A DNA stretch of 35,037 bases, taken from a virus. Taxonomy: Duplodnaviria > Heunggongvirae > Uroviricota > Caudoviricetes. Position 1 is the first letter of the stretch. Each line of letters opens with the position of its first letter. The notes beneath the pieces were generated by a model, which was not told the origin of the DNA, did not search any database, and saw only the letters and a program-made list of their open reading frames with translations. Where the stretch lies: the IMG/VR virus record IMGVR_UViG_2531839130_000012, one strand, 5' to 3'. Shown here in pieces: positions 2,885 through 35,037 of the stretch. Both the position numbers and the translations under genes were made by a program.

Positions 2885-2891
2885 GGTGCTT

Positions 2892-3698: not shown

Positions 3699-3925
3699 TG
3701 GCTGATGCAATGGATCTCGTACAGCAGCGCGTTGAAGAAGAACGCCAGCGCCATATTCGTGCTGCCCGTGCCAAAACACCGGGCGTGTCTCGCGTGCTTT
3801 GTATTGAATGTGAAGCGCCAATTCCGCCAGCACGACGCCGCGCCATTCCGGGAGTGCAGCTTTGCATTACCTGCCAGGAAATCGCAGAGCTGAAAGGCAA
3901 ACATTACAACGGAGGTGCTGTATGA
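3698..3925 (+). CDS. TraR/DksA-family C4 zinc-finger protein
   Basis: CIECEAPIP...CITC four-cysteine motif in a 75-aa protein; translationally coupled to the downstream gene (ATGA overlap). Confidence 0.65.
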   Translation: MADAMDLVQQRVEEERQRHIRAARAKTPGVSRVLCIECEAPIPPARRRAIPGVQLCITCQEIAELKGKHYNGGAV

Positions 3926-4779
3926 GCACCATCCTGAAATGGGCGGGAAATAAAACCGCCATTATGTCCGAACTGAAAAAACACCTTCCTGCTGGCCCGC
4001 GACTGGTTGAACCTTTCGCGGGTTCCTGTGCTGTGATGATGGAGACGGATTACCCCAGCTATCTGGTTGCGGATATTAATCCTGATTTAATCAACCTCTA
4101 TAAAAAGGTTGCCGCTGATTGTGAATCGTTTATATCTCGCGCCAGAGTTTTATTTGAGATCGCAAACAGGGAGGTGGCTTATTACAACATAAGGCAGGAG
4201 TTTAATTACTCCACTGAAATTACTGATTTCATGAAAGCGGTATATTTCCTGTATCTCAATCGTCACGGTTACCGTGGTTTATGTCGCTATAACAAGAGCG
4301 GGCATTTCAACATTCCCTACGGTAATTATAAAAATCCGTATTTCCCTGAAAAAGAAATTCGCGCATTTGCAGAAAAGGCCCAGCGAGCAACGTTTATCTG
4401 CGCCAGCTTTGATGAAACGCTGGCGATGTTGAAGGCGGGGGATGTGGTGTATTGCGATCCGCCGTATGACGGTACGTTTTCCGGCTATCACACTGACGGC
4501 TTCACTGAAGATGACCAGTATCACCTGGCATCTGTTCTTGAACATCGGTCATCAGAAGGACATCCAGTCATTGTTTCTAACAGTGACACATCCCTGATCC
4601 GTTCGCTGTATCGCAATTTTACTCACCACTACATCAAGGCAAAACGCAGCATCGGTGTGGCAGCTGGCGAGGGTAAATCAGCAACAGAAATCATTGCTGT
4701 TTCCGGGCCGCGCTGCTGGGTGGGATTTGATTATTCGCGTGGCGTGGATAGTTCTGCCGTGTACGGAGTACGTGCATGA
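3922..4779 (+). CDS. dam: DNA N6-adenine methyltransferase, Dam family
   Basis: Motif [10 protein letters not shown] and motif IV DPPY ([10 protein letters not shown]); starts [11 protein letters not shown]; GGAGG Shine-Dalgarno; stop overlaps the gene A start. Confidence 0.85.
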
Positions 4780-7190: not shown

Positions 7191-7259
7191 TTACGCTGGT
7201 TAACAATTCGTGCTCTTAATAATACCAGGCATATCAGGCTGATAAGCGTAAAAAAACGT

Positions 7260-7302
7260 TTTACATCAGTAAGATTATTATATACTGTAAACATAAACAG
7301 TG
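7260..7302 (+). promoter_or_regulatory. SOS promoter: -35 TTTACA (7260-7265), -10 TATACT (7281-7286), overlapping LexA box TACTGTAAACATAAACAGTG (7283-7302)
   Basis: CTGT-N8-ACAG core with 16/20 match to the LexA consensus TACTGTATATATATACAGTA, placed over the -10/+1 region about 45 nt upstream of the next ATG. Confidence 0.6.
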
Positions 7303-7343
7303 GTTATACATACAGTATTGCGTGTGGTGTCATAGGAGGAAAG

Positions 7344-7532
7344 ATGCAGGACTATTTTTTGGAGTCTTTGAAGCTCCAGCGCATTGATTTTTTTCTTAAG
7401 CTTGTAGCGGCTAGTGAGTGTAGTGATGAAGAGAAGGGGCTGGCTCTGCAGTGGGTTTCTGAATTGACTGATGAACTCATGGCAAAAATCAGAAGCCACG
7501 AATACAACCGCTCAATGGATGTCATCAACTGA
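7344..7532 (+). CDS. Small SOS-regulated protein (62 aa), possible Tum-like antirepressor N-terminal module
   Basis: Strong TAGGAGGA Shine-Dalgarno before ATG 7344; first ORF after the LexA box; same position as the 186 tum operon. Confidence 0.45.
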   Translation: MQDYFLESLKLQRIDFFLKLVAASECSDEEKGLALQWVSELTDELMAKIRSHEYNRSMDVIN

Positions 7533-7542
7533 GGTGACTTTT

Positions 7543-7776
7543 ATGCGCATTGAAATAATGATCGATAAAGAGCAGAAGATTAGCCAGTCTACCCTGGACG
7601 CCCTTGAATCCGAGCTTTACCGCAATCTGCGCCCCCTGTATCCCAAAACGGTAATCCGTATCCGTAAAGGTAGCTCTAACGGTGTGGAACTGACCGGACT
7701 GCAACTGGACGAAGAAAGAAAACAAGTGATGAAAATTATGCAGAAGGTGTGGGAAGACGACAGCTGGCTGCATTGA
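7543..7776 (+). CDS. DinI-family protein
   Basis: MRIEIMIDK...LDALESELYRNL...YP...KQVMKIMQKVWEDDSW aligns along its length with E. coli DinI (MRIEV..., ...WESADDW); GAGG Shine-Dalgarno before ATG 7543. Confidence 0.75.
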   Translation: MRIEIMIDKEQKISQSTLDALESELYRNLRPLYPKTVIRIRKGSSNGVELTGLQLDEERKQVMKIMQKVWEDDSWLH

Positions 7777-7830
7777 TTTTGTCAATAGACGCTTGTTTTT
7801 ACTAATCAAAAAGGGTTACATATGAGTGAG

Positions 7831-7863
7831 AGGCGATGTCAATCAGATATCGCCTTGTTTTTT
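7831..7863 (+). terminator. Rho-independent terminator-like hairpin (AGGCGAT / ATCGCCT) followed by TTGTTTTTT
   Basis: Read directly from the sequence downstream of the DinI-like gene. Confidence 0.45.
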
Positions 7864-7889
7864 GTCAAGAAAAGAATAATAGGCTAAAA

Positions 7890-8567
7890 ATGAAAATTAA
7901 TAACGTAGCGTTACCAATATCTCTGGCTGTAATCCTAACTGGTTGCGTGCCACATGCTTCTAACCGAAATATCACTGCTATTGAAGTGGTGAAGCCTGCT
8001 ATTGGGCAAAGTGCTACCGCCTACATGGGCGATCCCATTATCACATCTGCTACTGGATTTAAAACGGACGTACTAGAACTTGGTGCGGCTAATGGTGCAT
8101 TGTCTTCTATCGCTGCTGGTACATATTGCAGTGAGGGGAATGGAATTTACCGCAATTATCATAACCCTCAAGCTGTTGCGTTAAAAAATCTCTATGGGCA
8201 AATCGGTAACTATGTTGATTATGTTAGTTACGATGCTGCAAAAAATGAGATATCACCGCCAAATGGTACTTCTTATACTGCATCAGAAATTTCTATCAAA
8301 CGTGTTCCTGATGGGCTGTGTCGAGTTAGTAACTCATTGGTTAAGACTATCGAATACAATGGAAATGCAGGCGGTGTAATGAAGTTCACCTATCGTGAAT
8401 TTGCAAACGATATGGCTCGTGCAGCATTTACAACAGATTTTTCTGTAGATTCTAAGGGAAGTGACGTTATCGCTTACAAAGGTGCCAAGTTCAAAGTGAA
8501 CAAGGCTGATAACTCGTCTATTTCTTATACAATTATTTCTGGCTTTGACAAGACTGTCACGTTCTAG
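7890..8567 (+). CDS. Lipoprotein of unknown function (lipobox LTGC), cargo gene
   Basis: MKINNVALPISLAVILTGC signal with lipobox Cys; AT-rich; sits between the SOS operon and the cos-like site. Confidence 0.6.
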   Translation: MKINNVALPISLAVILTGCVPHASNRNITAIEVVKPAIGQSATAYMGDPIITSATGFKTDVLELGAANGALSSIAAGTYCSEGNGIYRNYHNPQAVALKNLYGQIGNYVDYVSYDAAKNEISPPNGTSYTASEISIKRVPDGLCRVSNSLVKTIEYNGNAGGVMKFTYREFANDMARAAFTTDFSVDSKGSDVIAYKGAKFKVNKADNSSISYTIISGFDKTVTF

Positions 8568-8671
8568 GTTTCACGCTTGCTGAGTATGTTACGATTTTGC
8601 ACATTCTGCATAAACGCGCATGTCTATGCTGCATGAGATCGCATGATCGTTTGAGGATCTTTTGTGTTAAG

Positions 8672-8698
8672 GCCCGCCAGTTCTGGCGGGCTTTTGCG
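8672..8698 (+). terminator. Rho-independent terminator (GCCCGCCAG ttc TGGCGGGC then TTTTG)
   Basis: Perfect GC-rich stem plus T-run downstream of the lipoprotein gene. Confidence 0.6.
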
Positions 8699-8740
8699 TA
8701 GATCATGCAGGTGCATGAAAACCACTACATAAAGCGGGCA

Positions 8741-8759
8741 GGCGTGGCGGGGATACGAG
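8741..8759. other. Candidate cos (cohesive-end) site, GGCGTGGCGGGGA...
   Basis: 13/13 identity to the start of the 19-nt P2/186 cohesive-end sequence as I recall it (GGCG[A/T]GGCGGGGAAAGCA...); location between gene A and the portal gene matches P2/186. Confidence 0.4.
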
Positions 8760-8840
8760 CGCGCGGATGAGTAATCTATACCATCATCTTGATAAAAGTA
8801 TTAAAAATGGTAAATTTAGCAAGCTACATATTAAAGGAAA

Positions 8841-10238
8841 ATGAAGATGTATGAAGTAATTGATATATCAGCGCAGGAAATTAAGGCGTTGTTAAACACT
8901 ACTGAAGATCATTTCAATGATTTTAAAAGTAAGCAAATAGCGCCTAATAAATTACAAGAAACTTTTGTAGCATTTGCAAATGCTGATGGCGGTAATATTT
9001 ATATTGGCATAGAGGATGCAGCTTCGGGGAGAGAGCGTATATCTGGTTTCAATGAGCCAGAGGAAGCGAATGCTATTATTTCGACCTTATTGGAAAATAC
9101 TAATCCAGCTGTTGAGAATGTTGAGGTGGAATATTTAAGAACACCTTCCAATGGATTGATTTTACATGTGGATATACCAAAAAGCCCCAAAGTTCATTAC
9201 ACGGCCTCTGGCGATTGCTTTATAAGAGCTAACGCGCAAAAATTAAAAATAAAAGGTGAGCGAATTACTCAGCTTTCCTATTCTAAAGGCGCAGAACCTT
9301 ATGAAAAAAAAGCAGTGGATATAGTTGAAGTAGAAGATATTCTTGAAAGTGAATATTATTCTGATTATTTACGTAGAATAGGAACGACTCAGTCACCGAG
9401 AGTTTTTTTAAAAAAACAACGACTGTTAACTAAGAAAGATGGTGAATTTGTCCCGAATGTAGGCTGTGTTTTACTATTTGATGAAGAGCCTCAAGGATGT
9501 TTAGATACTCGATGTGCTGTAAAAGTATATCGGCTTAGAACAACTGAAGCAGAGTACAAACGTGAACAATTACAGGAAGATCCTGTAACGATTGAGGGGC
9601 CACTTGAAGTGGTTATTTTAAATACAATAGCAAAAGTAAAAGAATATGTTGATGGAGCATCATTCAAAGACGGCGAAAATCTAGTAAAACTTAGCTATCC
9701 TGCAGAAGCATTGAAGGAAATATTAGTTAATGCTGTTATTCATAGAGATTACAGCCAAAAGGATGATGTGCACGTAAAAGTTTATGACAACCGGATTGAA
9801 GTTCAAAGTCCAGGCAGATTGCCTGGATACATGACTATTAATAATTTATATGAAGAGCGGTTTTCTCGTAATCCAAATTTAGTGCGTTTGTTGCATAAAC
9901 TTCCCAATCCAGTGAACCATGATATTGGTGAGGGGCTTGATACTGCAAAAAATGAATTGCGTAAGGCCGGGTTGGTAGCCCCGGTATTTGAAGAAAGGGG
10001 CAATAATTTTGTTGTAATAGTTAAGCATCAAACAATAGCCTCAATTGAGGATGTGATTATTAATTATTTTAAAGAAAATCCAACGGGACAGCTCACAAAT
10101 AAGTTGGTTAGACAATTAAGTGGCGAAGATGACCTTCAAAAGGTTAAAAAGGCATTGCAAAAGTTAAGGGAGGAGGGCGTAATAAAACCATTAGATCCTA
10201 ACGCGAATCCTTTCAAATTTAAATATATTAAAGCTTAA
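8841..10238 (+). CDS. Schlafen-like/AlbA_2 DNA-binding domain + HATPase_c_4-like domain + C-terminal winged-helix protein (465 aa); candidate defence/cargo gene
   Basis: N-terminal FNDFKSK...VAFANADGGNIYIGIED (AlbA_2/Schlafen signature); central EALKEILVNAVIHRDYS...VKVYDNRIEVQSPGRLP (HATPase_c_4 signature); C-terminal LTNKLVRQLSGEDDLQKVKKALQKLREEGVI (wHTH-like); strongly AT-rich; flanked by terminators; the start may be ATG 8847 rather than 8841. Confidence 0.7.
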   Translation: MKMYEVIDISAQEIKALLNTTEDHFNDFKSKQIAPNKLQETFVAFANADGGNIYIGIEDAASGRERISGFNEPEEANAIISTLLENTNPAVENVEVEYLRTPSNGLILHVDIPKSPKVHYTASGDCFIRANAQKLKIKGERITQLSYSKGAEPYEKKAVDIVEVEDILESEYYSDYLRRIGTTQSPRVFLKKQRLLTKKDGEFVPNVGCVLLFDEEPQGCLDTRCAVKVYRLRTTEAEYKREQLQEDPVTIEGPLEVVILNTIAKVKEYVDGASFKDGENLVKLSYPAEALKEILVNAVIHRDYSQKDDVHVKVYDNRIEVQSPGRLPGYMTINNLYEERFSRNPNLVRLLHKLPNPVNHDIGEGLDTAKNELRKAGLVAPVFEERGNNFVVIVKHQTIASIEDVIINYFKENPTGQLTNKLVRQLSGEDDLQKVKKALQKLREEGVIKPLDPNANPFKFKYIKA

Positions 10239-10244
10239 GTTAAA

Positions 10245-10269
10245 GGTGGAGGTTGTCTCCACCTTTTTT
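10245..10269. terminator. Bidirectional rho-independent terminator (GGTGGAG gttgt CTCCACC, A-run before, T-run after)
   Basis: Between the convergent 465-aa gene and the portal gene. Confidence 0.55.
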
Positions 10270-10289
10270 CATAGGTAATGATTTTTAAA

Positions 10290-11318
10290 TTATAGTTTAT
10301 AGTGTTCGAAAGTTATTGCTTCTTCATTGATCCAATAGTTGAGATCTTGTAACTTCTTCTGAAGTGGCATCAGTTCATTCCGAACAAATACCCGGCTGGC
10401 CTTCTCCACATCCCCAAACCCTCCAACATTATTAGGCATAATCCCCATCATTTGCGGCGGCACGCGGTGCGCAGCCATCATGTCGTCGCGGCTGACATTT
10501 TTGATATTCAGAAATTCATCCTTCGCCGCGACTTCTGATAACGGGATGATTTGAAGCCCGTCCTTTTTGCCGTTAGGCGAGTACATAAACAGATTGCGGA
10601 AGTTGCCTGGACCTTTGGCGCTTTTCATTGCGTTGCGGAGGTTGTTCACATCCTCCTGGTTCTGCGCGGCATCGGTCATGTACATGATGAAGCCTGCATG
10701 GCTGCCGTTGATGTAATACTTACGGCGGAACAGCGTGGCGGACTCGTTGAGCAGGGCTGACGGAATGGCAGAAAGATAGCCGGGCAGGCCGTAGATCTCC
10801 TGGTTAATGTCCGGTTCCATCAGATGAAAAATGCTGCCTTTCGTGAACTGATACGGCTGGGTTGTCATACCGTATTGCACAAACCAGTAGGTATCCAGGT
10901 CTAACCCGCGTCGGGTGTATTTTGCCAGAGCAGGCTCAAGGGCGATAACTTCACCGAAGCGGTTCGTGCGTTTCTCCAGGTAGGCGTTACCAAATACCAG
11001 ATAGTCCTGCACAAAACGTGAAAAAGCCTGCTGGCTGAGCAGCGGATGGGGGATGTAGGTACTGGTCAGAATGTTGCATTTCACCGCAATTGGTGAACTG
11101 TGATGCACGGCGGCGCGGAAGGTGCGTGCCAGTCCGTCAAAGCTTACTGGCGGCTCATACCAGCGATCTGTCTGTACGCATTCCACATAGTCCAGTAGTT
11201 CGCGGCGGTCCAGAACAGGAACGGGATCACCGAAGCTGAATGCTTCGGCTGTAGTTTGACTTTTATGCTGGATCTGGTTCGTCGACGCAGCGCGGTTCTT
11301 CTTACTCTTTCCCATCAA
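10290..11318 (-). CDS. Q: Portal protein (P2 gpQ family)
   Basis: 342 aa; first late gene next to the cos region, co-oriented with and overlapping the terminase ATPase gene, as in the P2 PQ operon. Confidence 0.9.
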   Translation of the reverse strand: MMGKSKKNRAASTNQIQHKSQTTAEAFSFGDPVPVLDRRELLDYVECVQTDRWYEPPVSFDGLARTFRAAVHHSSPIAVKCNILTSTYIPHPLLSQQAFSRFVQDYLVFGNAYLEKRTNRFGEVIALEPALAKYTRRGLDLDTYWFVQYGMTTQPYQFTKGSIFHLMEPDINQEIYGLPGYLSAIPSALLNESATLFRRKYYINGSHAGFIMYMTDAAQNQEDVNNLRNAMKSAKGPGNFRNLFMYSPNGKKDGLQIIPLSEVAAKDEFLNIKNVSRDDMMAAHRVPPQMMGIMPNNVGGFGDVEKASRVFVRNELMPLQKKLQDLNYWINEEAITFEHYKL

Positions 11319-19678: not shown

Positions 19679-20034
19679 CGCTTTATAGCGGGATGAACAA
19701 TACCAGCGGCACAGTCATTACTGATATTGATCATCTGCGCCAGTCGGTGCGGGACATTCTGCTGACACCGCAGGGTAGCCGTATTGCCCGCCGGGAATAT
19801 GGTTCCCTGCTGTCGGCACTGATAGATCAGCCACAAAATCCGGCATTACGCCTGCAGGTCATGTCGGCAGTGTATGTGGCGCTGAGTCGCTGGGAGCCAC
19901 GGTTGACGCTGGATTCCATCACCATCAACAGCAATTTTGACGGTTCAATGGTGGTGGAGCTGACCGGGCGGCGGAATAACGGTGTGCCTGTGTCCCTTTC
20001 CGTATCAACAGGAGCAGAGAATGGCAGTGATTGA
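19675..20034 (+). CDS. W: Baseplate wedge protein W (gp25-like)
   Basis: Synteny V-W-J-I. Confidence 0.8.
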   Translation: MTLYSGMNNTSGTVITDIDHLRQSVRDILLTPQGSRIARREYGSLLSALIDQPQNPALRLQVMSAVYVALSRWEPRLTLDSITINSNFDGSMVVELTGRRNNGVPVSLSVSTGAENGSD

Positions 20035-20929
20035 CCTTTCGCAGTTGCCTGCACCGCAGATTGTGGATGTGCCGGACTTTGAGACGCTGCTTGCCGAACG
20101 CAAGGCAGAATTTGTGGCGCTTCATCCGAAAGATGAGCAGGAAGCAGTGATCCGCACGCTGGAACTGGAATCTGAACCCGCCACTAAATTGTTGCAGGAG
20201 AACGCTTACCGTGAGTTGCTTCTGCGCCAGCGCATTAACGAAGCCGCGCAGGCGGTGATGGTGGCTTACGCGATGGGCGGCGATCTTGACCAGCTCGCTG
20301 CCAACTACAACGTGACACGCCTGACGGTGACGCCTGCTGATAATGATGCTGTGCCGCCCGTTGCAGCTGTGATGGAAAGCGATGAAGCGTTGCGCCTGCG
20401 TGTGCCTGCAGCCTTTGAAGGGCTTTCTGTTGCGGGGCCAACTGCAGCTTATGAATTTCATGCCCGAAGCGCCGACGGTCGGGTGGCGGATGCCAGTGCA
20501 ACCAGCCCGGCACCTGCAGAGGTGGTGCTGACTGTCCTTAGCCGCGAAGGCGATGGAACTGCAGAAAAAGACCTGCTGGACGTGGTGGAAAAAGCTCTGA
20601 ACAGTGAGAACGTCCGCCCGGTGGCTGACCGTCTTACGGTTCGCAGCGCAGAAATCATCCCGTATCGCGTGGAAGCCACCATTTTTCTCTATCCGGGACC
20701 GGAAGCAGAGCCGGTAATGGCAGCGGCAAAAGCCAGTCTGCAGAAGTACATTGCCAGCCAGACGAGGCTTGGTCGGGATATTCGCCGTAGCGCCATCTTT
20801 GCTGCTCTGCATGTTGAGGGTGTTCAACGTGTGGAACTGGCTTCTCCGCTGGCGGATGTGGTCCTGAACAAAACACAGGCGGCATCATGTACGCAGTGGA
20901 GCGTAACCAACGGAGGAACGGATGAATAG
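20021..20929 (+). CDS. J: Baseplate protein J
   Basis: AGGAG Shine-Dalgarno before ATG 20021 (MAVIDLSQLP); synteny. Confidence 0.85.
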   Translation: MAVIDLSQLPAPQIVDVPDFETLLAERKAEFVALHPKDEQEAVIRTLELESEPATKLLQENAYRELLLRQRINEAAQAVMVAYAMGGDLDQLAANYNVTRLTVTPADNDAVPPVAAVMESDEALRLRVPAAFEGLSVAGPTAAYEFHARSADGRVADASATSPAPAEVVLTVLSREGDGTAEKDLLDVVEKALNSENVRPVADRLTVRSAEIIPYRVEATIFLYPGPEAEPVMAAAKASLQKYIASQTRLGRDIRRSAIFAALHVEGVQRVELASPLADVVLNKTQAASCTQWSVTNGGTDE

Positions 20930-21527
20930 TCTGCTGCCACCGGGTTCAACTTCACTGGAGCGCCGACTGGCGCAAACCTGTAGCGGGATTTCTAATTTGC
21001 AGGTGCCGCTGCGTGACTTGTGGAATCCGGCTACCTGTCCGGTCAGCTTCCTGCCTTATCTCGCCTGGGCGTTCTCTGTGGATCGCTGGGACGAGGGCTG
21101 GACAGAAAGCGTCAAACGCCAGGTAGTGAAGGATGCTTTTTATATTCATCAGCATAAAGGAACTACCAGTGCCGTGCGGCGGGTGGTGGAACCGTTCGGA
21201 TTCCTGATCCGCATTATTGAGTGGTGGCAGACCGGAGAAACACCGGGCACGTTTCGCCTGGATATCGGCGTGCAGGACCAGGGCATCACTGAAGATACCT
21301 ATCTGGAACTTGAGCGGCTGATAAGCGATGCCAAACCATGTAGCCGTCACATGATCGGCATGTCCATCAATCTGCAGACCAGCGGTCCGCATTGGGTGGG
21401 GGCCGCCAGCTATCTTGGCGAAGAAATCACGATCTATCCGTATATCAACGAAACAATTATTTCTGGCGGCACCGCGCATGAAGGCGGGGCGGTCCATGTT
21501 ATTGACACAATGAGAGTGAATCCATGA
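20922..21527 (+). CDS. I: Baseplate/tail protein I
   Basis: Synteny. Confidence 0.8.
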   Translation: MNSLLPPGSTSLERRLAQTCSGISNLQVPLRDLWNPATCPVSFLPYLAWAFSVDRWDEGWTESVKRQVVKDAFYIHQHKGTTSAVRRVVEPFGFLIRIIEWWQTGETPGTFRLDIGVQDQGITEDTYLELERLISDAKPCSRHMIGMSINLQTSGPHWVGAASYLGEEITIYPYINETIISGGTAHEGGAVHVIDTMRVNP

Positions 21528-22603
21528 GCACAAAATTTTATACCCTGCTGACGGATATTGGCGCGGCGAAACTTGCCAGCGCCGCCGCGCTCGGTGTGCC
21601 GCTAAAAATTACCCATATGGCGGTCGGCGATGGCGGCGGAGTATTACCGACGCCGGACGCAAAGCAGACGGCACTGGTAAATGAGAAACGCCGGGCTGCG
21701 TTGAATATGCTTTATATCGACCCGCAGAACAGTAGCCAGATTATTGCTGAACAGGTGATCCCTGAAAACGAGGGCGGTTGGTGGATACGTGAAGTGGGCC
21801 TGTTTGATGAGTCCGGGGCATTGATTGCCGTGGGAAACTGCCCGGAAAGCTATAAGCCGCAACTGGCTGAAGGCAGCGGGCGTACCCAGACCGTGCGCAT
21901 GGTGCTGATTACCAGCAGCACGGACAATATCACCCTGAAAATCGACCCTGCCGTAGTGCTGGCAACCCGCAAGTATGTGGATGATAAGGTACTGGAGCTG
22001 AAGGTGTACGTGGATGATCAGATGGCAAAACATCTTGCAGCACCGGACCCGCATTCACAGTATGCACCCAAAGAAAGTCCTACGTTTACCGGGACACCCA
22101 AAGCGCCAACGCCAGCGGCGGGGAATAACACCACGCAGGTTGCGACCACCGCGTTTGTTCAGGCGGCACTGACGGCTCTTATTAATGGTGCGCCAGCCAC
22201 GCTGGACACGCTGAAAGAAATTGCCGCAGCCATAAACAATGACCCGAAATTCAGTACCACCATTAACAATGCGCTGGCACTGAAAGCGCCGCTGTCGAGT
22301 CCGGCACTCACCGGAACGCCAACAGCACCTACTGCGGCACAGTCGGTCAACAATACACAGATTGCCACCACGGCATTTGTGAAATCGGCGATTGCGGCAA
22401 TGGTGGGTTCTGCACCTGCGGCACTGGATACACTGAACGAACTGGCGGCGGCACTGGGGAATGATCCGAACTTTGCCACGACAATGCTTAATGCGCTGTC
22501 AGGTAAACAACCGCTGGACAATACGCTTACCAATTTGAGTGGAAAGGATGTAGCTGGTCTTCTCACATACCTTGGTTTGGGAGAAGCCAGATATGTCATT
22601 TAG
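21524..22603 (+). CDS. H: Tail fibre protein H, constant N-terminal part, terminating at an in-frame TAG 5 codons inside the invertible segment
   Basis: Two tandem ~60-aa tail-fibre repeats (NTTQVATTAFVQAAL... and NNTQIATTAFVKSAI...); the crossover site lies in its 3' end; TAG at 22601-22603. Confidence 0.8.
   Translation: MSTKFYTLLTDIGAAKLASAAALGVPLKITHMAVGDGGGVLPTPDAKQTALVNEKRRAALNMLYIDPQNSSQIIAEQVIPENEGGWWIREVGLFDESGALIAVGNCPESYKPQLAEGSGRTQTVRMVLITSSTDNITLKIDPAVVLATRKYVDDKVLELKVYVDDQMAKHLAAPDPHSQYAPKESPTFTGTPKAPTPAAGNNTTQVATTAFVQAALTALINGAPATLDTLKEIAAAINNDPKFSTTINNALALKAPLSSPALTGTPTAPTAAQSVNNTQIATTAFVKSAIAAMVGSAPAALDTLNELAAALGNDPNFATTMLNALSGKQPLDNTLTNLSGKDVAGLLTYLGLGEARYVI
22560..22585. 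other. hix/gix-like 26-bp crossover site, left: TTCTCACATACC-TT-GGTTTGGGAGAA
   Basis: 12-2-12 architecture with ACC-core-GGT like hix/gix; its inner half site is the exact reverse complement of the inner half site of the right site. Confidence 0.6.
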
Positions 22604-22915
22604 CGAGGAGCTAATGCCAATGGTGCATGGGTACGCTGGTCAGATGGTGCAATAGAAGTATTTGGAACCGGTGGATCTAATGATAATGGACTGGCTAAAG
22701 TCGTTTACCCAATTGCACTGCCTAAACTTTCACGTTTTATCAGTATCGCAGAAAGAATAAGAACGGATTACGAGAGCACACCTAATAATGTTCACGTTTC
22801 AATGATCGTGGATGATCAGGTAACAAATACCGGCTTTTATGCCCGCTGCCAGATGTACGACGGCAGACCATCATCAAATGCTTTTTCATGGAGGGTTTAT
22901 TGTGCGCCTGTTTAA
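22604..22915 (+). pseudogene. Tail-fibre C-terminal tip domain remnant, in frame with H but separated from it by the TAG codon
   Basis: Translation RGANANGAWVRWSDGAIEVFGTGG...NVHVSMIVDDQVTNTGFYARCQMYDGRP has the pattern of a phage tail-fibre C-terminal domain; no start codon of its own. Confidence 0.4.
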
Positions 22916-23099
22916 TCCAGTTACTTTGACTGAAGTAATCCCCGGTCTTCATGACGTGACCGGGGCTATTGAATTACCGGAGGACAACTGGTTTTTTACT
23001 ATGACAGAAATTCCTCAGGGCATGGAGCTAACAATTAATGAGAAAGGCGAACCAATACTGATTGAGGTTAATCAGTCTCAGGGAATACAGGCCAAATAA
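22902..23099 (+). pseudogene. Truncated gpG-like tail-fibre assembly chaperone (66 aa, N-terminal part only)
   Basis: GGAGGG Shine-Dalgarno and GTG start overlapping the fibre-tip stop; ...PEDNWFFTMTEIPQGMELTINEKGEPILIEV resembles the N-terminal region of P2 gpG (...[28 protein letters not shown]...); ends where the convergent chaperone gene ends. Confidence 0.4.
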
Positions 23100-23673
23100 T
23101 ATCAGGCGCGGTGCTGGTATCTATTGCCGTCACCGCGTCAATGTAATCCAGCACAGCGTTAAGGCGGGTTGTTTCTGCCTGCGTCAGTTTACGTCCGGCC
23201 TGCAATTTCAGCTGAATCAGACTGATGGAAGCCATAGCAGCATCAATCAGAGACTGGCGCTGTACTTCTGCTGCATCTACTGCGGCGCTATGCTGTGCCT
23301 CGGTATCTGTTACCCATTTCTCACCATCCCATTTATCGTATGGCGTTAATGGGGCAAAAGTGGTCGTATTTTCAGGGTAATCCCCCGGCACAGTAATTTC
23401 TTTTGATTCCCCCGTTTCGATGCCATAGACAATTTCACCGCGATGGTCTGGCACATATTCCCATGAGTTAAAATCTGCAGAACGGCAGATTGCATAACCA
23501 GCCTTATGTGTGCCGGGCGCATCGGTACAGGAATTGGCAGGAATACCCACCCCCACAGGCAGATACTCAAGCGATGAGGATATGTATTCGCGGGTGTCGC
23601 CCCGGTAGTTGTACACAGTGATTTCTCCTGCCACGGTGGCAATAAACGCACTGTTTAATTTTGCTTTCGCCAT
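23068..23673 (-). CDS. Tail-fibre assembly chaperone (Tfa family) of the alternative cassette
   Basis: 201 aa ending ...DYIDAVTAIDTSTAPDIIWPVFPETD (conserved Tfa C-terminal motif); start codon overlaps the stop of the upstream fibre cassette. Confidence 0.75.
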   Translation of the reverse strand: MAKAKLNSAFIATVAGEITVYNYRGDTREYISSSLEYLPVGVGIPANSCTDAPGTHKAGYAICRSADFNSWEYVPDHRGEIVYGIETGESKEITVPGDYPENTTTFAPLTPYDKWDGEKWVTDTEAQHSAAVDAAEVQRQSLIDAAMASISLIQLKLQAGRKLTQAETTRLNAVLDYIDAVTAIDTSTAPDIIWPVFPETD

Positions 23674-24257
23674 TATGCAGCCCTCACGATGTAGTTAAAT
23701 GCAATGTTGCGCGGACGGGTTTCAGATGCGTACACGGACGGATGAGTAACACCGTCTGAGGTCGATGCCCTGTAAGTCCTGAATGGTGGTAATCCGGGCG
23801 CTATTTCGTTGTTATTACCTGTTGGTGAAAGGTCCTTGCGATAAAGGATTACCTTGTCTGCCCTACTGGTTGCGTCCCATGATGTTCCTGACGACGATGG
23901 ACTCAGGACCGCACTGGGTATTTCTGGTTCATCGTTGAAAACCGTATAGATATCGCTTTCCATCTGGTATGACGGATTACCCACTCCGGTTGGCAGAGCG
24001 TGCGCATGGTCCTGGAAAGCAAAACTCTGACAACTGAGAAGTATGCGCCCCCCATCAATCCCTCGCCCGCCATCCCAGCCACGAATAAACTCACCACGTA
24101 AATCTGGCAATTTATTTGTCGGGTAAGCCTTTGCCAGTTCCGGGTATTCTTCAGCAGAAAAAGCCGCACCATTGCATTTCAGCCAGCCTGTTGGCGGAGT
24201 GGCTGAAGGCCACGGAACAGGGACACCAACAGGTAATGCAGAGCCTTCTCCCAAACC
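23673..24257 (-). CDS. Alternative tail-fibre C-terminal cassette with tail-collar domain (promoterless; would fuse to H after inversion)
   Basis: Reads GLGEGSALPVGVPVPWPSATPPTGWLKCNGAAFSAEEYPELAKAY...LPDLRGEFIRGWD (tail-collar-like) starting at the right crossover site; shares the GLGE junction codons with H. Confidence 0.7.
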   Translation of the reverse strand, partial: GLGEGSALPVGVPVPWPSATPPTGWLKCNGAAFSAEEYPELAKAYPTNKLPDLRGEFIRGWDGGRGIDGGRILLSCQSFAFQDHAHALPTGVGNPSYQMESDIYTVFNDEPEIPSAVLSPSSSGTSWDATSRADKVILYRKDLSPTGNNNEIAPGLPPFRTYRASTSDGVTHPSVYASETRPRNIAFNYIVRAA

Positions 24258-24271
24258 AACGTTTATGAAAA
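24246..24271. other. hix/gix-like 26-bp crossover site, right: TTCTCCCAAACC-AA-CGTTTATGAAAA
   Basis: Inverted relative to the left site; core AA versus TT. Confidence 0.6.
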
Positions 24272-24326
24272 TGCAGAGATAATGGTTAACTGGCATCATC
24301 CCCGGTTTTTATTCAGGGGGATGCTC

Positions 24327-24893
24327 ATGCTTATTGGCTATGTACGCGTGTCAACAAATGACCAGAACACCGATTTGCAACGTAATGCACTGAACTGCGC
24401 GGGATGTGAGCGAATTTTTGAGGATAAAATCAGTGGCACTAAGTCCGACAGACCAGGGTTGAAAAAACTGCTCAGGACACTATCGGCAGGAGACACGCTG
24501 GTTGTCTGGAAGCTGGACAGGTTGGGGCGCAGTATGCGGCATCTTGTTACGCTGATAGAAGAGTTGCGTCAGCAAGGCGTGAATTTCCGAAGCCTGACTG
24601 ACAGTATTGATACCAGCACCCCAATGGGCCGTTTCTTTTTTCATGTCATGGGTGCCCTGGCTGAAATGGAACGCGAACTGATAGTTGAACGTACCAGGGC
24701 AGGGCTGGCTGCAGCTCGTGCCAAAGGCAGAGTAGGTGGACGCCGTCCTAAGTTGACCACCGAACAGTGGGCACAGATTGGGCGTTTACTCGAGGCCGGA
24801 GAATCAAGACAGCGTATTGCACTGATTTTTGATGTGGGTGTTTCCACAATTTATAGAAAATTTCCGGCAAATAAGAGCAATGAATCCCCCTGA
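24327..24893 (+). CDS. Serine DNA invertase, Gin/Pin/Cin/Hin family
   Basis: MLIGYVRVSTNDQNTDLQRNAL...LVVWKLDRLGRSM...FRSLTDSIDTS...MGRFFFHVMGALAEMERELI closely resembles Mu Gin; C-terminal HTH. Confidence 0.85.
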   Translation: MLIGYVRVSTNDQNTDLQRNALNCAGCERIFEDKISGTKSDRPGLKKLLRTLSAGDTLVVWKLDRLGRSMRHLVTLIEELRQQGVNFRSLTDSIDTSTPMGRFFFHVMGALAEMERELIVERTRAGLAAARAKGRVGGRRPKLTTEQWAQIGRLLEAGESRQRIALIFDVGVSTIYRKFPANKSNESP

Positions 24894-24941
24894 ATCAGCA
24901 TTATTTTGATTATCCCTGCAAGTAGACAAATACCGTCATTT

Positions 24942-24959
24942 TGTGTGAATAACGGTACA
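24942..24959. promoter_or_regulatory. Ogr/B-type late-promoter dyad TGT-N12-ACA upstream of the sheath gene
   Basis: TGTgtgaataacggtACA about 85 nt before the FI start. Confidence 0.5.
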
Positions 24960-25035
24960 ACTGCGCTTAGCTGTTTGTCAGGCACAATCACTTCAACATA
25001 GGGCGAAGCCTAATCCAATCAGGAGGTTCGCCACT

Positions 25036-26208
25036 ATGGCTCAGGATTACCACCACGGGGTGCGCGTTGTTGAAGTCAACGAAGGCACCCGATCCATTAC
25101 CACGGTGAGCACCGCCATCGTGGGCATGGTCTGCACGGGCGATGATGCCGATGCAAAAATGTTTCCTCTTAACAAACCTGTTCTGATCACTGATGTGCTG
25201 ACTGCCAGCGGTAAAGCGGGTGAGTCCGGCACGCTGGCCCGTTCGCTGGATGCCATCGCTGACCAGGCAAAACCCGTGACCGTTGTTGTGCGTGTGCCGC
25301 AGGGTGAAACGGAAGAAGAAACCACGACCAATATCATCGGCGCAGTGACTGCTGAAGGTAAAAAAACAGGCATGAAAGCTCTGTTATCTGCCCAGTCACA
25401 GCTCGGCGTTAAACCGCGCATTCTTGGCGTGCCAGGCCACGATAACAAAGCCGTTGCGACTGAATTGCTGAGCGTGGCGCAAAGCCTGCGTGGGTTTGCT
25501 TACCTGTCAGCGTATGGCTGCAAGACAGTGCAGGAGGCGATCACTTACCGTGAAAACTTTAGCCAGCGCGAAGGGATGCTGATCTGGCCTGACTTTACTG
25601 GCTGGGACACGGTGCTGAACGCCGAAGCAATGGCATATGCCACCGCCCGTGCGCTTGGTCTGCGCGCCAAAATTGATGAGCAGACTGGGTGGCACAAAAG
25701 CCTGTCCAACGTGGGCGTGAACGGTGTCACCGGAATTTCTGCTGATGTGTTCTGGGATCTGCAGGACCCGGCAACAGATGCGGGACTGCTGAACCAGAAC
25801 GACGTCACCACGCTTGTGCGCAAGGACGGTTTCCGCTTCTGGGGTTCCCGCTGTCTGAGTGATGACCCGCTCTTTGCCTTCGAAAACTACACCCGCACAG
25901 CGCAGGTACTGATGGACACAATGGCAGAAGCGCACATGTGGGCGGTGGACAAACCGCTGAACCCGTCGCTGGCGCGCGACATTATCGAAGGTATCCGCGC
26001 CAAAATGCGCAGCCTGGTCAGTCAGGGCTATCTCATTGGTGGTGATTGCTGGCTGGATGAGTCGGTGAACGATAAAGACACGCTGAAAGCCGGAAAACTC
26101 ACCATCGACTATGACTACACGCCAGTGCCGCCACTTGAAAAACTGATGCTGCGCCAGCGCATCACCGATCAGTACCTGGTGAATTTCGCCAGCCAGGTCA
26201 GCGCGTAA
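25036..26208 (+). CDS. FI: Contractile tail sheath protein FI
   Basis: 390 aa; AGGAGG Shine-Dalgarno; synteny FI-FII-E-T. Confidence 0.9.
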
Positions 26209-32260: not shown

Positions 32261-32305
32261 ACAAAAAACCCATCAACCTTGAACCGAAATGGCGGGGTTG
32301 ATGGG
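32261..32305 (-). terminator. Hairpin (CCCATCAACC / GGTTGATGGG, 17-nt loop) followed by a T-run on the minus strand; possible ybjL terminator, lies in the attR region
   Basis: Read directly from the sequence; large loop makes it a weak call. Confidence 0.35.
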
Positions 32306-32417
32306 CTCCACAAAATGGGGACATCAAAGAAAAGCAGTGGCACTAATTAAGACTGATGCCCTGCGGAAAAGTTCTGCGGTTGTGCAAAAAAATTTCATTT
32401 TCAGGGCAACTTCAGTT

Positions 32418-34103
32418 TTATCCTAATCCTGGCCATACCATGACGATGATTGTCCCTGCCAGCGTCAGCAGGACGTTGGCGATTGCGTAGGTGCCCGCGT
32501 AGCCCAGCGCAGGGATGTTACTGCGAGCTGTATCACTGATGATCTCCATTGCCGGCGCGCAGGTGCGTGCGCCCATCATTGCGCCGAACAACAGTGCGCG
32601 GTTCATTCGCAATACATAAGCACCGAACAAGAAACAGATAACCACGGGCACAAGACTGACAATTAATCCGGCAATCAACATCTGACCGCCAATCGCGCCC
32701 AGGCCGTTATTAATACCGCTACCGGCGCTCAGACCAACGCCTGCCATAAACACCATCAAGCCGAACTCTTTCACCATGCTTAATGCACCTTGCGGAATGT
32801 AACCGAAGGTCGGGTGGTTAGCACGCATAAAGCCCAGCATAATTCCGGCGAATAACAACCCGGCAGCGTTCCCCATGCCGAAACTGAATGTGCTGAACTG
32901 GAAGGTGATCATCCCGATCATCAGCCCAATAACAAAGAAGGCGCAAAATGCCAGCAGGTCAGTGACCTGGCTGTGAATCGAGATAAAGCCGATGCGATCG
33001 GCGATGGTTTTTACGCGACGGGCATCACCGCTGACTTGTAAAACGTCACCTTTGTTAAGCACGACGTTGTCATCTATCGGCATCTCAATCTGGCTACGAA
33101 TGACGCGGTTAAGGAAGCAACCGTGATCGGTCAACTTCAGTTGTGCGAGACGTTTACCTACAGCGTTATGGTTTTTAACGACCACTTCTTCAGTGACGAT
33201 ACGCATGTCGAGAAGGTCACGATCGAAAACTTCTTTACCGTTACGGAAGCTGGGATCGAGTCGGGCATGGGCGTCGGGATAGCCTACCAACGCTATTTCA
33301 TCGCCCATTTGTAGCACGGCATCACCGTCTGGATTTGCCAGAATCCCGTTACGTCGAATACGTTCAATGTAGCAGCCGGTTTGTCGATAAATACCCAGTT
33401 CACGCAGATTTTTGCCGTCGGTCCAGGCCACCAGCTCCGGGCCGACGCGATAGGCGCGGATCACCGGTAAATAAACCTTACGGTTGGCATCAGTGTCCAG
33501 GCCACGTTCGCGGGCGATTTGCTGGGCGCTGGTCTGTAAGTCCTGATGCTGCAATTTCGGCAAGTAACGCGCACCAACAATCAAACTCACCAGACCGATT
33601 AAATAGGTTAAGGCATACCCGAGGCTCAGATTATCCAGTGCCAGTGAGAGCTGCCTGCTTTCCATGCCGGAATGACGCAGTGTATCGCCAGCACCGACCA
33701 GAACCGGTGTCGACGTCATAGAGCCTGCTAACATACCGGCCGTCAGGCCAATATCCCAGCCAAACAGCTTACCTAACCCTAAGGCGATCACCAGCGCACT
33801 GCCAACCATCACCAGTGCTAACATTAGGTAATTTTTCCCATCGCGAAAAAAAATGGAAAAAAAGTTCGGTCCGGCTTCGACCCCGACGCAGAAAATAAAC
33901 AGCATAAAGCCAAGATTAAGCGCATCGGTGTTAATGCTGAAATGTTGTTGGCCTAATAACAGCGATACGACTAAAACGCCAATGGAATTACCCAGTTGGA
34001 TCGAACCAAGTCGTAACTTTCCGAGACATAGCCCAAGCGCGAGGACCACAAATAATAACAGAATGTAATTCCCATTTAACAATTCGGCGACGTTTATATT
34101 CAC
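32418..34103 (-). CDS. ybjL: Putative AAE-family transport protein YbjL (chromosomal)
   Basis: 561-aa polytopic membrane protein with central soluble domains; size, and position next to ybjM and grxA, match E. coli ybjL. Confidence 0.85.
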
Positions 34104-34372
34104 GGAGGCTAACTTCTTGTTTACTAGTAAGCTGTTGAAAGAAATGGTAATTTACGATAATGTTTTTTACCAGAATTCAGGGCGCAGATTCATTCAGCGC
34201 ACCTAAACGATAGTAAAGTAACAATATATTTTACTAGTGTAATCACATTAGGTATCAACGGCTATATGAATTGCGTTGGCCTATATTAGCATGGAATGCG
34301 AAGCGGCTTTATCTTACTGAACGCCACACTGGCGAAAAATGTGTTCGATAGACGCAGTGTCAGGAGGAACGA

Positions 34373-34750
34373 GTGAAACATAAACAACGTTGGGCGGGGG
34401 CAATCTGCTGTTTTGTCCTCTTCATTGTGGTGTGCCTTTTTCTGGCGACGCACATGAAAGGCGCTTTTCGGGCTGCCGGGCATCCTGAAATCGGCTTGCT
34501 ATTTTTCATTCTTCCTGGAGCAGTCGCCAGCTTCTTTTCACAGCGTAGAGAAGTCCTGAAACCTCTGTTTGGCGCAATGCTGGCGGCACCCTGTTCGATG
34601 CTCATTATGCGGCTGTTTTTTTCACCGACGCGCTCATTCTGGCAAGAGCTGGCATGGTTACTAAGCGCGGTGTTCTGGTGTGCGCTGGGGGCACTGTGTT
34701 TCTTATTTATCAGTAGTTTGTTTAAACCACAGCACAGAAAAAATCAGTAA
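34373..34750 (+). CDS. ybjM: Inner membrane protein YbjM (chromosomal)
   Basis: 125-aa hydrophobic protein between ybjL and grxA, as in E. coli. Confidence 0.75.
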   Translation: MKHKQRWAGAICCFVLFIVVCLFLATHMKGAFRAAGHPEIGLLFFILPGAVASFFSQRREVLKPLFGAMLAAPCSMLIMRLFFSPTRSFWQELAWLLSAVFWCALGALCFLFISSLFKPQHRKNQ

Positions 34751-34769
34751 AGCCCTCAACGCGAGGGCT
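34751..34769. terminator. Hairpin AGCCCTC aacgc GAGGGCT between convergent ybjM and grxA
   Basis: Read directly from the sequence; weak T-run. Confidence 0.35.
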
Positions 34770-34779
34770 TGTCAGACGA

Positions 34780-35037
34780 TCAGGCGTCCAGATTTTCTTT
34801 CACCCATGCAGCAAAATCGGTATAGCCGCCGATATGTTGCTGATCGACAAAAATCTGCGGCACGGTTTCTACGGGTTTACCTGCCTTTTGTTGTAGATCT
34901 TCTTTAGTGATCCCTTCCGCACGAATATCTACATACTGATACTGAAAATCATCGCGTTCATTGCTCAATTTCTCAGCCAGATCTTTTGCACGCACACAGT
35001 AAGGGCAACCCGGACGACCAAAAATAACGGTTTGCAT
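34780..35037 (-). CDS. grxA: Glutaredoxin 1
   Basis: 85 aa with CPYC active site (GRPGCPYCVRAKDLAEKL); near-identical to my recollection of E. coli GrxA; start codon is the last three bases of the window. Confidence 0.9.
   Translation of the reverse strand: MQTVIFGRPGCPYCVRAKDLAEKLSNERDDFQYQYVDIRAEGITKEDLQQKAGKPVETVPQIFVDQQHIGGYTDFAAWVKENLDA

What the first reader, a model, noticed from the sequence alone, without database searches (positions are those of the whole stretch)
22560..24271. Gin/Pin-type invertible tail-fibre segment defined by two hix-like 26-bp sites
Seen in sequence: TTCTCACATACC-TT-GGTTTGGGAGAA at 22560-22585 and TTCTCCCAAACC-AA-CGTTTATGAAAA at 24246-24271 are inverted copies with the 12-2-12 layout of hix/gix sites; their inner half sites are exact reverse complements, so both orientations encode the same GLGE junction with the constant part of H. 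An invertase gene closely resembling Mu Gin lies immediately outside the right site. Established knowledge: Mu G, P1 C and e14 P segments switch tail-fibre specificity this way.
Basis: partly seen in the sequence, partly recalled or inferred. Interest (0 to 1): 0.6.

Follow-up and report, generated by a model that had tools for sequence, protein, structure and literature searches.

The report
Invertible tail-fibre switch in P2-like prophage
This is an ordinary, well-known kind of phage DNA switch: a Gin-type enzyme flips a 1.7-kb segment so that the tail-fibre gene of a P2-like E. coli prophage gets one of two alternative receptor-binding ends, and the end currently joined to the gene carries a premature stop codon.

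Summary
Both 26-bp sites are at the stated coordinates. They are the only two matches in 35 kb to a consensus I derived from Mu gix and P1 cix (0.01 expected by chance).

- **Context:** the sites bracket a 1,684-bp segment in the tail-fibre gene H of a P2-like (Peduoviridae) E. coli prophage.
- **Invertase:** the adjacent 188-aa serine recombinase is 74% identical to Mu Gin and 79% to P1 Cin. Its 5' end contains the positional homologue of the Fis-dependent enhancer.
- **Evidence of inversion:** the window, flipped in silico between the two cores, matches two other E. coli chromosomes full-length at 99.9%. Two near-clonal genome pairs differ over 6.5 kb only by an exact inversion bounded by these sites.

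In the present orientation H ends after 359 aa at an in-frame TAG (22601-22603). All close relatives have CAG there and make a 463-aa fibre. The same TAG allele appears in three independent assemblies. The flipped orientation gives an intact 544-aa fibre plus its assembly protein.

This kind of switch is already known, and inversion has been shown experimentally in P2-like prophages. Interest is low.

The parts
21524..22573 (+). Constant part of tail-fibre gene H (P2 gpH-like), up to and including the crossover dinucleotide. It encodes residues 1-350; the shared inner half-site then adds GLGE (351-354), ending ...YLGLGE.
   Evidence: Pfam Phage_tail_fib PF12571, E=6e-65. Annotated as phage tail protein in the 99.9% identical NCTC9064 prophage. 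Homology with many other phages stops at query position 1086, which is window 22585, the end of the left site.
22560..22585 (.). Left recombination site (hix/gix-like, 12-2-12), with core TT at 22572-22573.
   Evidence: Sequence read; inverted repeat; consensus match with 1 mismatch, 0.01 expected by chance.
22574..22915 (+). Variable cassette A, joined to H in the present orientation. It encodes a gp53-like C-terminal tip and is interrupted by an in-frame TAG at 22601-22603. Relatives have CAG there and make a 463-aa H.
   Evidence: ORF list. A single C-to-T difference from NCTC9064 at 22601. Pfam Gp53-like_C, weak at E=0.0017; PHROG 2557 at 7.5e-15. The TAG allele is also in three independent assemblies.
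22902..23099 (+). 65-aa ORF downstream of cassette A, of unknown function. It matches only the first 66 of 145 profile positions of PHROG 5400.
   Evidence: Annotated as hypothetical protein WP_001440573.1 in relatives. PHROG 5400, E=1.4e-25. No Pfam hit.
23068..23673 (-). Tail-fibre assembly protein (201 aa), which goes with cassette B.
   Evidence: Pfam Caudo_TAP PF02413, E=2e-30. PHROG 105 tail fiber assembly, E=4e-96.
23673..24257 (-). Variable cassette B, silent in the present orientation. It is a 194-aa C-terminal tip with a Tail Collar domain. After inversion H becomes 544 aa.
   Evidence: Pfam Collar PF07484, E=2e-15. PHROG 523 tail collar fiber protein, E=7e-67. In-silico inversion gives a 544-aa ORF, the same length as the H annotated in MB06173 and SW071618.
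24246..24271 (.). Right recombination site (hix/gix-like), with core AA at 24258-24259.
24327..24893 (+). DNA invertase, a 188-aa small serine recombinase of the Gin/Cin/Pin/Hin group.
   Evidence: Pfam Resolvase and HTH_7. phmmer E=3e-92 to Mu Gin structures 3uj3 and 4m6f, aligned end to end, with Ser9 conserved. 78.6% identity to P1 Cin and 74.1% to Mu Gin by tblastn.
24345..24416 (.). Positional homologue of the recombinational (Fis-dependent) enhancer, inside the 5' end of the invertase gene. Fis-consensus matches lie at 24349-24363 and 24397-24411.
   Evidence: P1 annotates its enhancer at nt 19-90 of cin. The window is 57/72 nt identical over that stretch. Two KNNYRNNWNNYRNNM matches with centres 48 bp apart sit at the same gene positions in cin, gin and the window. 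The right-site core is 97.5 bp from the first Fis centre, against 96.5 bp in Mu.

Best explanation
This is a two-state invertible tail-fibre segment of a P2-like E. coli prophage, run by a Gin-family serine invertase.

**Inferred mechanism (by homology with Gin, Hin and Cin).** Invertase dimers bind the two 26-bp sites. With host Fis bound to the enhancer inside the 5' end of the invertase gene, they form an invertasome. All four strands are cut with 2-nt staggers at the TT/AA cores, one half rotates 180 degrees, and the ends are religated. This flips 22574-24257.

**What the sequence shows.** The flip changes which C-terminal cassette is fused in frame after ...YLGLGE of gene H.
- Cassette A is a gp53-like tip followed by a 65-aa ORF.
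- Cassette B is a Collar-domain tip followed by a 201-aa tail-fibre assembly protein.

**State of this sequence.** The segment is in orientation A, and cassette A carries a CAG-to-TAG nonsense mutation at H codon 360. A non-suppressing host would therefore make a 359-aa fibre without its tip. Only orientation B would give a complete 544-aa fibre.

Shown here: the anatomy, the homology, and natural inversion in near-identical prophages. Inferred: Fis dependence, the cleavage chemistry, and the host-range consequences.
For: - **Sites:** both are present, and they are the only matches in the window to the gix/cix-derived consensus.
- **Invertase:** 74% identical to Gin and 78.6% to Cin, with the catalytic Ser9 and a C-terminal HTH_7 domain.
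- **Enhancer:** a homologue with two Fis-consensus matches 48 bp apart lies at the same distance from the nearest site as in Mu.
- **Cassettes:** two convergent tail-fibre C-terminal cassettes, with an assembly gene behind cassette B.
- **Inversion in near-identical prophages:** the in-silico inverted window matches E. coli MB06173 and SW071618 full-length, with 12 mismatches in 6,501 nt. The uninverted window matches NCTC9064 equally well.
- **Inversion in near-clonal pairs:** strains 64 and 61, and DG341-1 and DG342-2, are identical over 6.4-6.5 kb except that the stretch between the repeat arms is exactly reverse-complemented, with 0 mismatches.
- **Both orientations are common:** among complete E. 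coli genomes, 20 hold the segment as in the window and 36 hold it flipped, at 80% coverage or more.
- **Literature:** inversion phase variation in P2-like prophages of EPEC was shown by sequencing (PMC4272514). A delta-gin mutant locks a prophage tail-fibre shufflon (PMC13418256).
Against: - No data come from the strain that supplied the window, so activity in this particular lysogen is inferred from relatives.
- The Fis-site matches lie in coding sequence that is conserved for the protein (YVRVSTNDQ, CAGCE). Their conservation is therefore not independent evidence of enhancer function.
- The simple promoter scan found no promoter-like site for the invertase between the right site and its start codon.
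- The 65-aa ORF behind cassette A is not a recognisable tail-fibre assembly protein.
- With the amber codon, orientation A may be non-functional, so the switch may no longer serve host-range alternation in this lineage.
Confidence: 0.9

Rival explanations
1. A fossil switch. The sites and the invertase gene are inherited, but the segment no longer inverts in this lineage. The amber codon in cassette A would be one sign that the prophage's tail-fibre module is decaying.
For: There is an amber codon in the expressed cassette, and it is present in three further assemblies. The simple scan found no promoter for the invertase. The closest complete-genome relative, NCTC9064, has a frameshifted integrase, so decay occurs in this prophage group.
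Against: The invertase ORF is intact and full-length, with Ser9. Both sites are intact. Prophages with only 12 differences over 6,501 nt (99.8% identical) are found in both orientations, and near-clonal isolates differ only by the flip, so inversion is recent and frequent in this group. The integrase ORF at the left end of the window is open.
Confidence: 0.07
2. Inversion by general (RecA-dependent) homologous recombination between the short inverted repeats, rather than by the site-specific invertase.
For: The two orientations found in genomes show only that the breakpoints lie within the 15-bp identical arms. That does not in itself identify the enzyme.
Against: Only 15 bp are identical. From established knowledge, this is below the roughly 23-27 bp minimal efficient processing segment for RecA in E. 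coli. The repeats have the 12-2-12 layout and half-site consensus of gix/cix sites. A Gin/Cin orthologue with its enhancer sits alongside.
Confidence: 0.02
3. A multi-site shufflon-type system (like Min of p15B, or the three-repeat P2-like locus of EPEC) with more than two states.
For: Such loci exist in P2-like prophages (PMC4272514) and in FR-phi (PMC13418256). Some relatives carry larger segments with two full assembly genes.
Against: The consensus search finds exactly two sites in the whole 35-kb window, allowing up to 3 mismatches. The inner 14-mer has no further copy with fewer than 3 mismatches. The segment holds only two cassettes.
Confidence: 0.01

Closest known systems
Phage Mu G segment with Gin
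   Same: The gene order is the same: constant fibre part, invertible segment with two convergent variable-tip and assembly gene sets, then the invertase downstream on the same strand as the fibre gene. The invertase is 74% identical. The sites are 26 bp with the half-site pattern TTnTCnnAAACC. The enhancer is in the 5' end of the invertase gene, 96.5 bp (Mu) against 97.5 bp (window) from the nearest site core.
   Different: The segment is 1.7 kb here against 3.06 kb core to core in Mu. The core dinucleotide is TT/AA here and TC/GA in Mu. The phage backbone is P2-like, not Mu-like. The cassettes are unrelated. One cassette is followed by a 65-aa ORF instead of a U-type assembly gene. Cassette A carries an amber codon.
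Phage P1 C segment with Cin
   Same: This is the closest characterised invertase, at 78.6% identity. The cixL inner half GGTTTAAGAGAA differs from the window's GGTTTGGGAGAA at 2 of 12 positions, and the core TT is the same. The annotated enhancer is 57/72 nt identical.
   Different: In P1, cin lies upstream, with cixL at its 3' end. From established knowledge, the P1 C segment is 4.2 kb with long inverted repeats.
Invertible tail-fibre loci of P2-like (Peduoviridae) prophages and phages: EPEC E2348/69 P2-like prophages, Escherichia phage Cartapus (Elveevirus), phage 500465-1
   Same: The backbone and position are the same (J-I-H, segment, invertase, sheath FI). The H constant part and the invertase of Cartapus are 97% identical at the DNA level, and its invertase is annotated as a Mu phage Gin invertase homolog. 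Inversion in P2-like prophages was shown experimentally (PMC4272514).
   Different: The cassettes inside the segment differ: there is no detectable similarity to the Cartapus variable parts. The window's allele has the amber codon.
e14 P segment with Pin, and Salmonella Hin/hix
   Same: Same invertase family and same site architecture. From established knowledge, these invertases substitute for one another, so resident Pin-type enzymes could also flip this segment.
   Different: e14 is a defective lambdoid element. Hin flips a promoter rather than gene ends. I did not compare these sequences directly here.

Membership tests
Gin/Cin/Pin/Hin (Din) DNA-invertase systems | A small serine recombinase of about 190 aa: an N-terminal resolvase catalytic domain with the nucleophilic Ser9/10, and a C-terminal HTH. 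| tested here: met
   188 aa. Pfam Resolvase E=3e-53 and HTH_7 E=1e-15. Aligns over residues 1-184 with Gin structures 3uj3 and 4m6f at E=3e-92, and Ser9 aligns with Gin Ser9.
Gin/Cin/Pin/Hin (Din) DNA-invertase systems | Close sequence relationship to characterised invertases rather than to resolvases. | tested here: met
   78.6% identity to Cin and 74.1% to Gin. Gin scores 310 bits against 124 bits for gamma-delta resolvase.
Gin/Cin/Pin/Hin (Din) DNA-invertase systems | Two 26-bp imperfectly palindromic sites (12-2-12) in inverted orientation, with compatible 2-bp cores. | tested here: met
   The sites are at 22560-22585 and 24246-24271. The cores are TT and AA, which are reverse complements. 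These are the only two consensus matches in the window, with 0.01 expected by chance.
Gin/Cin/Pin/Hin (Din) DNA-invertase systems | A cis-acting recombinational enhancer with two Fis sites 48 bp apart, located in the 5' part of the invertase gene. | tested here: inconclusive
   The sequence homologue of the P1-annotated enhancer is present (57/72 nt). It has two Fis-consensus matches 48 bp apart, at the same positions as in cin and gin. However, this stretch is also constrained as coding sequence, the Fis consensus I used is degenerate and recalled from memory, and Fis binding and stimulation cannot be tested with these tools.
Gin/Cin/Pin/Hin (Din) DNA-invertase systems | The segment actually inverts, with breakpoints in the sites. 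| tested here: met
   This holds for near-identical prophages. Two near-clonal genome pairs differ only by an exact inversion between the repeat arms. Relatives at 99.9% identity (over the 3.5-kb region searched) occur in both orientations. It was not tested for the strain of the window itself.
Phage host-range switches of the Mu G / P1 C type | Inversion exchanges the C-terminal part of a tail-fibre gene together with a cognate assembly gene. | tested here: met
   Cassette B (Collar domain) comes with a Caudo_TAP assembly gene. Cassette A (gp53-like tip) comes with a 65-aa ORF. Both are fused in frame after GLGE. Caveats: cassette A has an amber codon, and its downstream ORF is not a recognisable assembly protein.
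Phage host-range switches of the Mu G / P1 C type | The two orientations give virions with different receptor specificity. | not testable with these tools
   This needs adsorption or plating assays with orientation-locked phage.
Shufflons (Rci tyrosine recombinase) and multi-site Min-type systems | More than two recombination sites giving several sub-inversions (and, for Rci-type shufflons, a tyrosine recombinase). | tested here: not met
   There are only two sites in 35 kb, and the recombinase is a serine invertase.

The most novel reading that the evidence does not exclude
The amber codon in cassette A is a genuine mutation fixed in this lineage, not a sequencing error. It turns a host-range switch into a toggle between complete and tipless fibres. 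Lysogens in orientation A would release non-adsorbing particles, unless the host carries a glutamine-inserting amber suppressor, which would restore the wild-type Gln. If so, one arm of an invertible switch can decay while the other keeps the phage viable.
Probability: 0.45. Interest if true: 0.2.

Novelty: already known. Interest (0 to 1): 0.1.

Why it matters
It matters little beyond correct annotation. The segment explains three things:
- why automated annotation calls a free-standing 207-aa "phage tail protein" on the minus strand, which is really the silent cassette read through the right site;
- why assemblies of such strains may break or differ in orientation here;
- why the H gene looks truncated in this sequence.

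For anyone using this prophage or its fibres, for example in host-range work, the practical point is that only the flipped orientation encodes a complete fibre in this allele.

Tried and rejected
- **Third or internal site.** I searched the inner 14-mer with up to 3 mismatches and the full gix/cix-derived consensus. Nothing turned up beyond the two sites, so the shufflon reading is rejected.
- **Promoter for the invertase.** The simple sigma-70 scan found no plus-strand candidate between the right site and the start codon. This is uninformative rather than negative.
- **Cartapus cassettes.** I compared cassette A and the 65-aa ORF with the corresponding Cartapus proteins and found no similarity. 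The cassettes are mosaic, and only the constant part of H and the invertase are shared.
- **Exact look-up of the 359-aa H.** I used this to judge whether the amber is real. Three hits are genuine TAG alleles. Three Logan contigs merely end at that point with C rather than T, and I excluded them as evidence for the amber.
- **Logan contig ends as evidence of mixed orientation.** These contigs end exactly one 31-mer past the last base specific to the left flank (22601). That fits a mixed-orientation population, but it fits a second copy of the cassette elsewhere in those genomes equally well, so I treat it as ambiguous.
- **Apparent 1,457-bp deletion in GCA_019585435.1.** See noticed in passing. 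The symmetric stubs make an assembly artefact as likely as a real deletion.
- **Heavy searches not run.** I ran no structure predictions or large protein-database searches. The identity of every part was already clear from Pfam, PHROGs, PDB and annotated near-identical genomes.
Full report
**1. The observation**

22560-22585 reads TTCTCACATACC-TT-GGTTTGGGAGAA, and 24246-24271 reads TTCTCCCAAACC-AA-CGTTTATGAAAA. They are the strongest inverted repeat in 21500-25000: 27 nt, 85% complementary, arms 1658 nt apart. The inner arm CTTCTCCCAAACCAA is exact over 15 nt, and the 14-mer within it occurs only at these two places in the window.

For a test that did not rest on remembered sequences, I fetched phage Mu and phage P1 and read their annotated sites. 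These are gixL TTATCCAAAACC-TC-GGTTTACAGGAA, gixR TTCCTGTAAACC-GA-GGTTTTGGATAA and cixL CAATCCTAAACC-TT-GGTTTAAGAGAA. The consensus they give is TTNTCNNAAACC-NN-GGTTTNNGANAA. It hits only the two reported sites in 35,037 bases, with one mismatch each. Shuffled sequence gives 0.01 hits on average.

**2. What surrounds the sites**

The window is a P2-like prophage of E. coli.
- The chromosomal flank at 32300-35037 (ybjL, ybjM, grxA) is 99.93% identical to E. coli NCTC9064.
- The genes upstream of the finding are baseplate J (19982-20929), tail protein I (20922-21527) and the tail-fibre gene H, starting at 21524 with the P2-type N-terminal domain.
- Downstream come the tail sheath FI (25036-26208) and the tail tube.
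- The closest named phage is Escherichia phage Cartapus (Peduoviridae, Elveevirus). Its H constant part and invertase are 97% identical at the DNA level, and its invertase is already annotated as a Mu phage Gin invertase homolog.
- Homology with several other phages stops at query position 1086, which is window 22585, the last base of the left site. The site is therefore also the boundary of the exchangeable module.

**3. Anatomy of the segment**

The stretch between the two core dinucleotides is 22574-24257 (1,684 bp).

Cassette A is on the plus strand, directly after ...YLGLGE. It runs from 22574 to 22915 and encodes a roughly 110-aa tip with a weak Pfam match to the gp53-like C-terminal domain (E=0.0017, below the curated cut-off) and a PHROG match to phrog_2557, annotated 'virion structural protein' (E=7.5e-15). 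A 65-aa ORF follows at 22902-23099. It matches only the first 66 of 145 profile positions of PHROG 5400, a family of unknown function.

Cassette B is on the minus strand, read inward from the right site. It runs from 24257 down to 23673 and encodes 194 aa with a Tail Collar domain. A 201-aa tail-fibre assembly protein follows at 23673-23068. Flipping the segment in silico gives a continuous 544-aa H. That is the same length as the H annotated in the genomes that carry the flipped orientation.

The 207/208-aa minus-strand "phage tail protein" called by ORF finders and by RefSeq is the silent cassette read through the right site to a fortuitous ATG. It is not an independent gene.

**4.

In the present orientation H reads ...GLGE-ARYVI and then meets TAG at 22601-22603. 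The gp53-like tip continues in the same frame after it.

- NCTC9064 is in the same orientation and differs from the window at only 4 positions in 3.5 kb. It has CAG at that codon and an annotated 463-aa H.
- MB06173 and SW071618, which are in the flipped orientation, also have C at that position.
- The TAG allele is not a private error. An exact-sequence look-up of the 359-aa product found it, stop codon included, in an ENA metagenome assembly (ERZ27271667) and in two NCBI assemblies (GCA_019585435.1, GCA_958337735.1). All three are identical or nearly identical to the window.
- Three further Logan hits are contigs that merely end at that point and carry C. I do not count them.

In this allele, then, orientation A encodes a fibre that lacks its tip, unless a suppressor is present. 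A glutamine-inserting amber suppressor would restore the wild-type residue. That last point is inference from established knowledge of supE.

**5. The recombinase and the enhancer**

The ORF at 24327-24893 is a 188-aa serine recombinase with Resolvase and HTH_7 domains.
- It aligns over residues 1-184 with the solved Gin structures at E=3e-92, and its Ser9 aligns with the catalytic Ser9 of Gin.
- It is 78.6% identical to P1 Cin and 74.1% to Mu Gin.
- P1 annotates its recombinational enhancer at nucleotides 19-90 of cin. The same stretch of the window's gene, 24345-24416, is 57/72 nt identical to it.
- Two matches to the degenerate Fis consensus KNNYRNNWNNYRNNM lie at 24349-24363 and 24397-24411. 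Their centres are 48 bp apart, and they sit at the same gene positions in cin, gin and the window.
- The first Fis centre is 97.5 bp from the core of the right site, against 96.5 bp in Mu.

This is what a Fis-dependent enhancer would look like. However, the stretch also encodes conserved protein motifs, so I rate this feature as consistent rather than proven.

**6. Does it invert?**

I built the sequence that inversion at the cores would produce and searched all complete E. coli genomes with it.
- It matches MB06173 and SW071618 over its full 3,501 nt at 99.9% identity, and 36 genomes at 80% coverage or more. The window as given matches NCTC9064 at 99.9%, and 20 genomes at 80% coverage or more.
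- Over 6,501 nt, the inverted construct differs from MB06173 and from SW071618 at 12 positions. The uninverted window differs from them at about 1,250 positions.
- Two pairs of near-clonal genomes give the strongest evidence. Strains 64 and 61 have the prophage at the same chromosomal coordinates. DG341-1 and DG342-2 have the same chromosome length. Each pair is identical across 6.4-6.5 kb except that the stretch between the repeat arms is exactly reverse-complemented, with zero mismatches. The identical flanks end at ...TTGGTTTGGGAGAAG and resume at CTTCTCCCAAACCAA....

That places the breakpoints inside the 15-bp identical arm, which includes the core dinucleotide. It also shows that inversion is frequent on the time scale of strain divergence. 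It does not show inversion in the strain that supplied the window.

**7. Mechanism**

By homology with Gin, Hin and Cin (established knowledge), invertase dimers bind the two sites and Fis binds the enhancer. Together they assemble an invertasome on supercoiled DNA. Ser9 attacks the DNA with 2-nt staggered cuts at the TT/AA cores, one half of the tetramer rotates by 180 degrees, and the strands are rejoined. The cores are reverse complements of each other, as religation in the inverted configuration requires.

The rivals are less likely.
- **Fossil switch.** This is contradicted by the intact gene and sites and by the recent flips seen in relatives.
- **RecA-mediated inversion.** This is unlikely with only 15 bp of identity.
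- **Multi-site shufflon.** This is excluded by the site search.

**8. Comparison with what is known, and verdict**

The system is a member of the Gin/Cin/Pin/Hin invertase family in every feature I could test, and it is organised like the Mu G segment on a P2-type backbone. It differs from Mu and P1 only in details:
- a shorter segment (1.7 kb against 3.06 kb in Mu);
- a TT/AA core, as in cix, rather than the TC/GA of gix;
- unrelated cassettes;
- a 65-aa ORF in place of one assembly gene;
- the amber allele.

Invertible tail-fibre loci in P2-like prophages have been demonstrated experimentally in EPEC E2348/69 (PMC4272514). A recent survey of P2-like phage hotspots notes DNA invertases with inverted neighbouring genes (bioRxiv 10.1101/2024.10.15.618418). 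A delta-gin mutant was shown to lock a prophage tail-fibre shufflon (PMC13418256).

The finding is a correct identification of an already known kind of element. Interest is low. The only points a specialist might note are the nonsense mutation in the currently expressed cassette and its presence in several independent assemblies.

Noticed in passing
window 22601-22603: There is an in-frame TAG in the tail-fibre cassette that is currently joined to H. The closest relatives have CAG there and a 463-aa H. The same TAG allele is present in ERZ27271667, GCA_019585435.1 and GCA_958337735.1.
   Followed up: yes
window 24311-24322 and 24884-24895: A perfect 12-nt inverted repeat, ATTCAGGGGGAT / ATCCCCCTGAAT, brackets the invertase ORF. 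The first copy covers the likely Shine-Dalgarno sequence and the second covers the last codons and the stop. It is kept in NCTC9064, Cartapus and DG341-1 but degraded in strain 64 and WP4-S18-ESBL-08. About 0.4 such repeats are expected by chance in 3.5 kb by my own estimate, so it may be chance.
   Followed up: partly
L014 (GCA_019585435.1, VCYL01000001.1), corresponding to window 22688-24144: This assembly is 100% identical to the window on both sides but lacks 1,457 bp of the invertible segment. It keeps 114 nt inside the left core and 113 nt inside the right core. Such symmetric stubs suggest an assembler artefact at a segment present in both orientations, but a real deletion is not excluded.
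   Followed up: partly
L016, L017, L018 (Logan contigs), ending at window 22601: Three short-read contigs from different runs all end exactly 31 nt after the last base specific to the left flank (22571), which is one k-mer past it. That is where a de Bruijn graph would branch if the cassette had two different left neighbours. The cause could be mixed orientation in the culture or a second copy elsewhere in the genome.
   Followed up: partly
window 22902-23099 (+): The 65-aa ORF behind cassette A matches only the first 66 of 145 profile positions of PHROG 5400, a family of unknown function, and it overlaps the 3' end of the convergent assembly gene. It may be a truncated gene. It is conserved in all close relatives as WP_001440573.1.
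   Followed up: partly
window 1-1110 (-), compared with L012 37739-38805: The integrase ORF at the left end of the window is open (369 aa). In NCTC9064 the integrase is annotated as frameshifted. The early region (window about 1-10350) is mosaic relative to NCTC9064, at 92-96% identity with gaps in homology.
   Followed up: no
window 23673-24299 (-): RefSeq annotation of near-identical prophages calls a free-standing 207-aa phage tail protein here. It is the silent cassette B extended through the right recombination site to an ATG outside the segment, so it is an annotation artefact of invertible fibre genes.
   Followed up: yes
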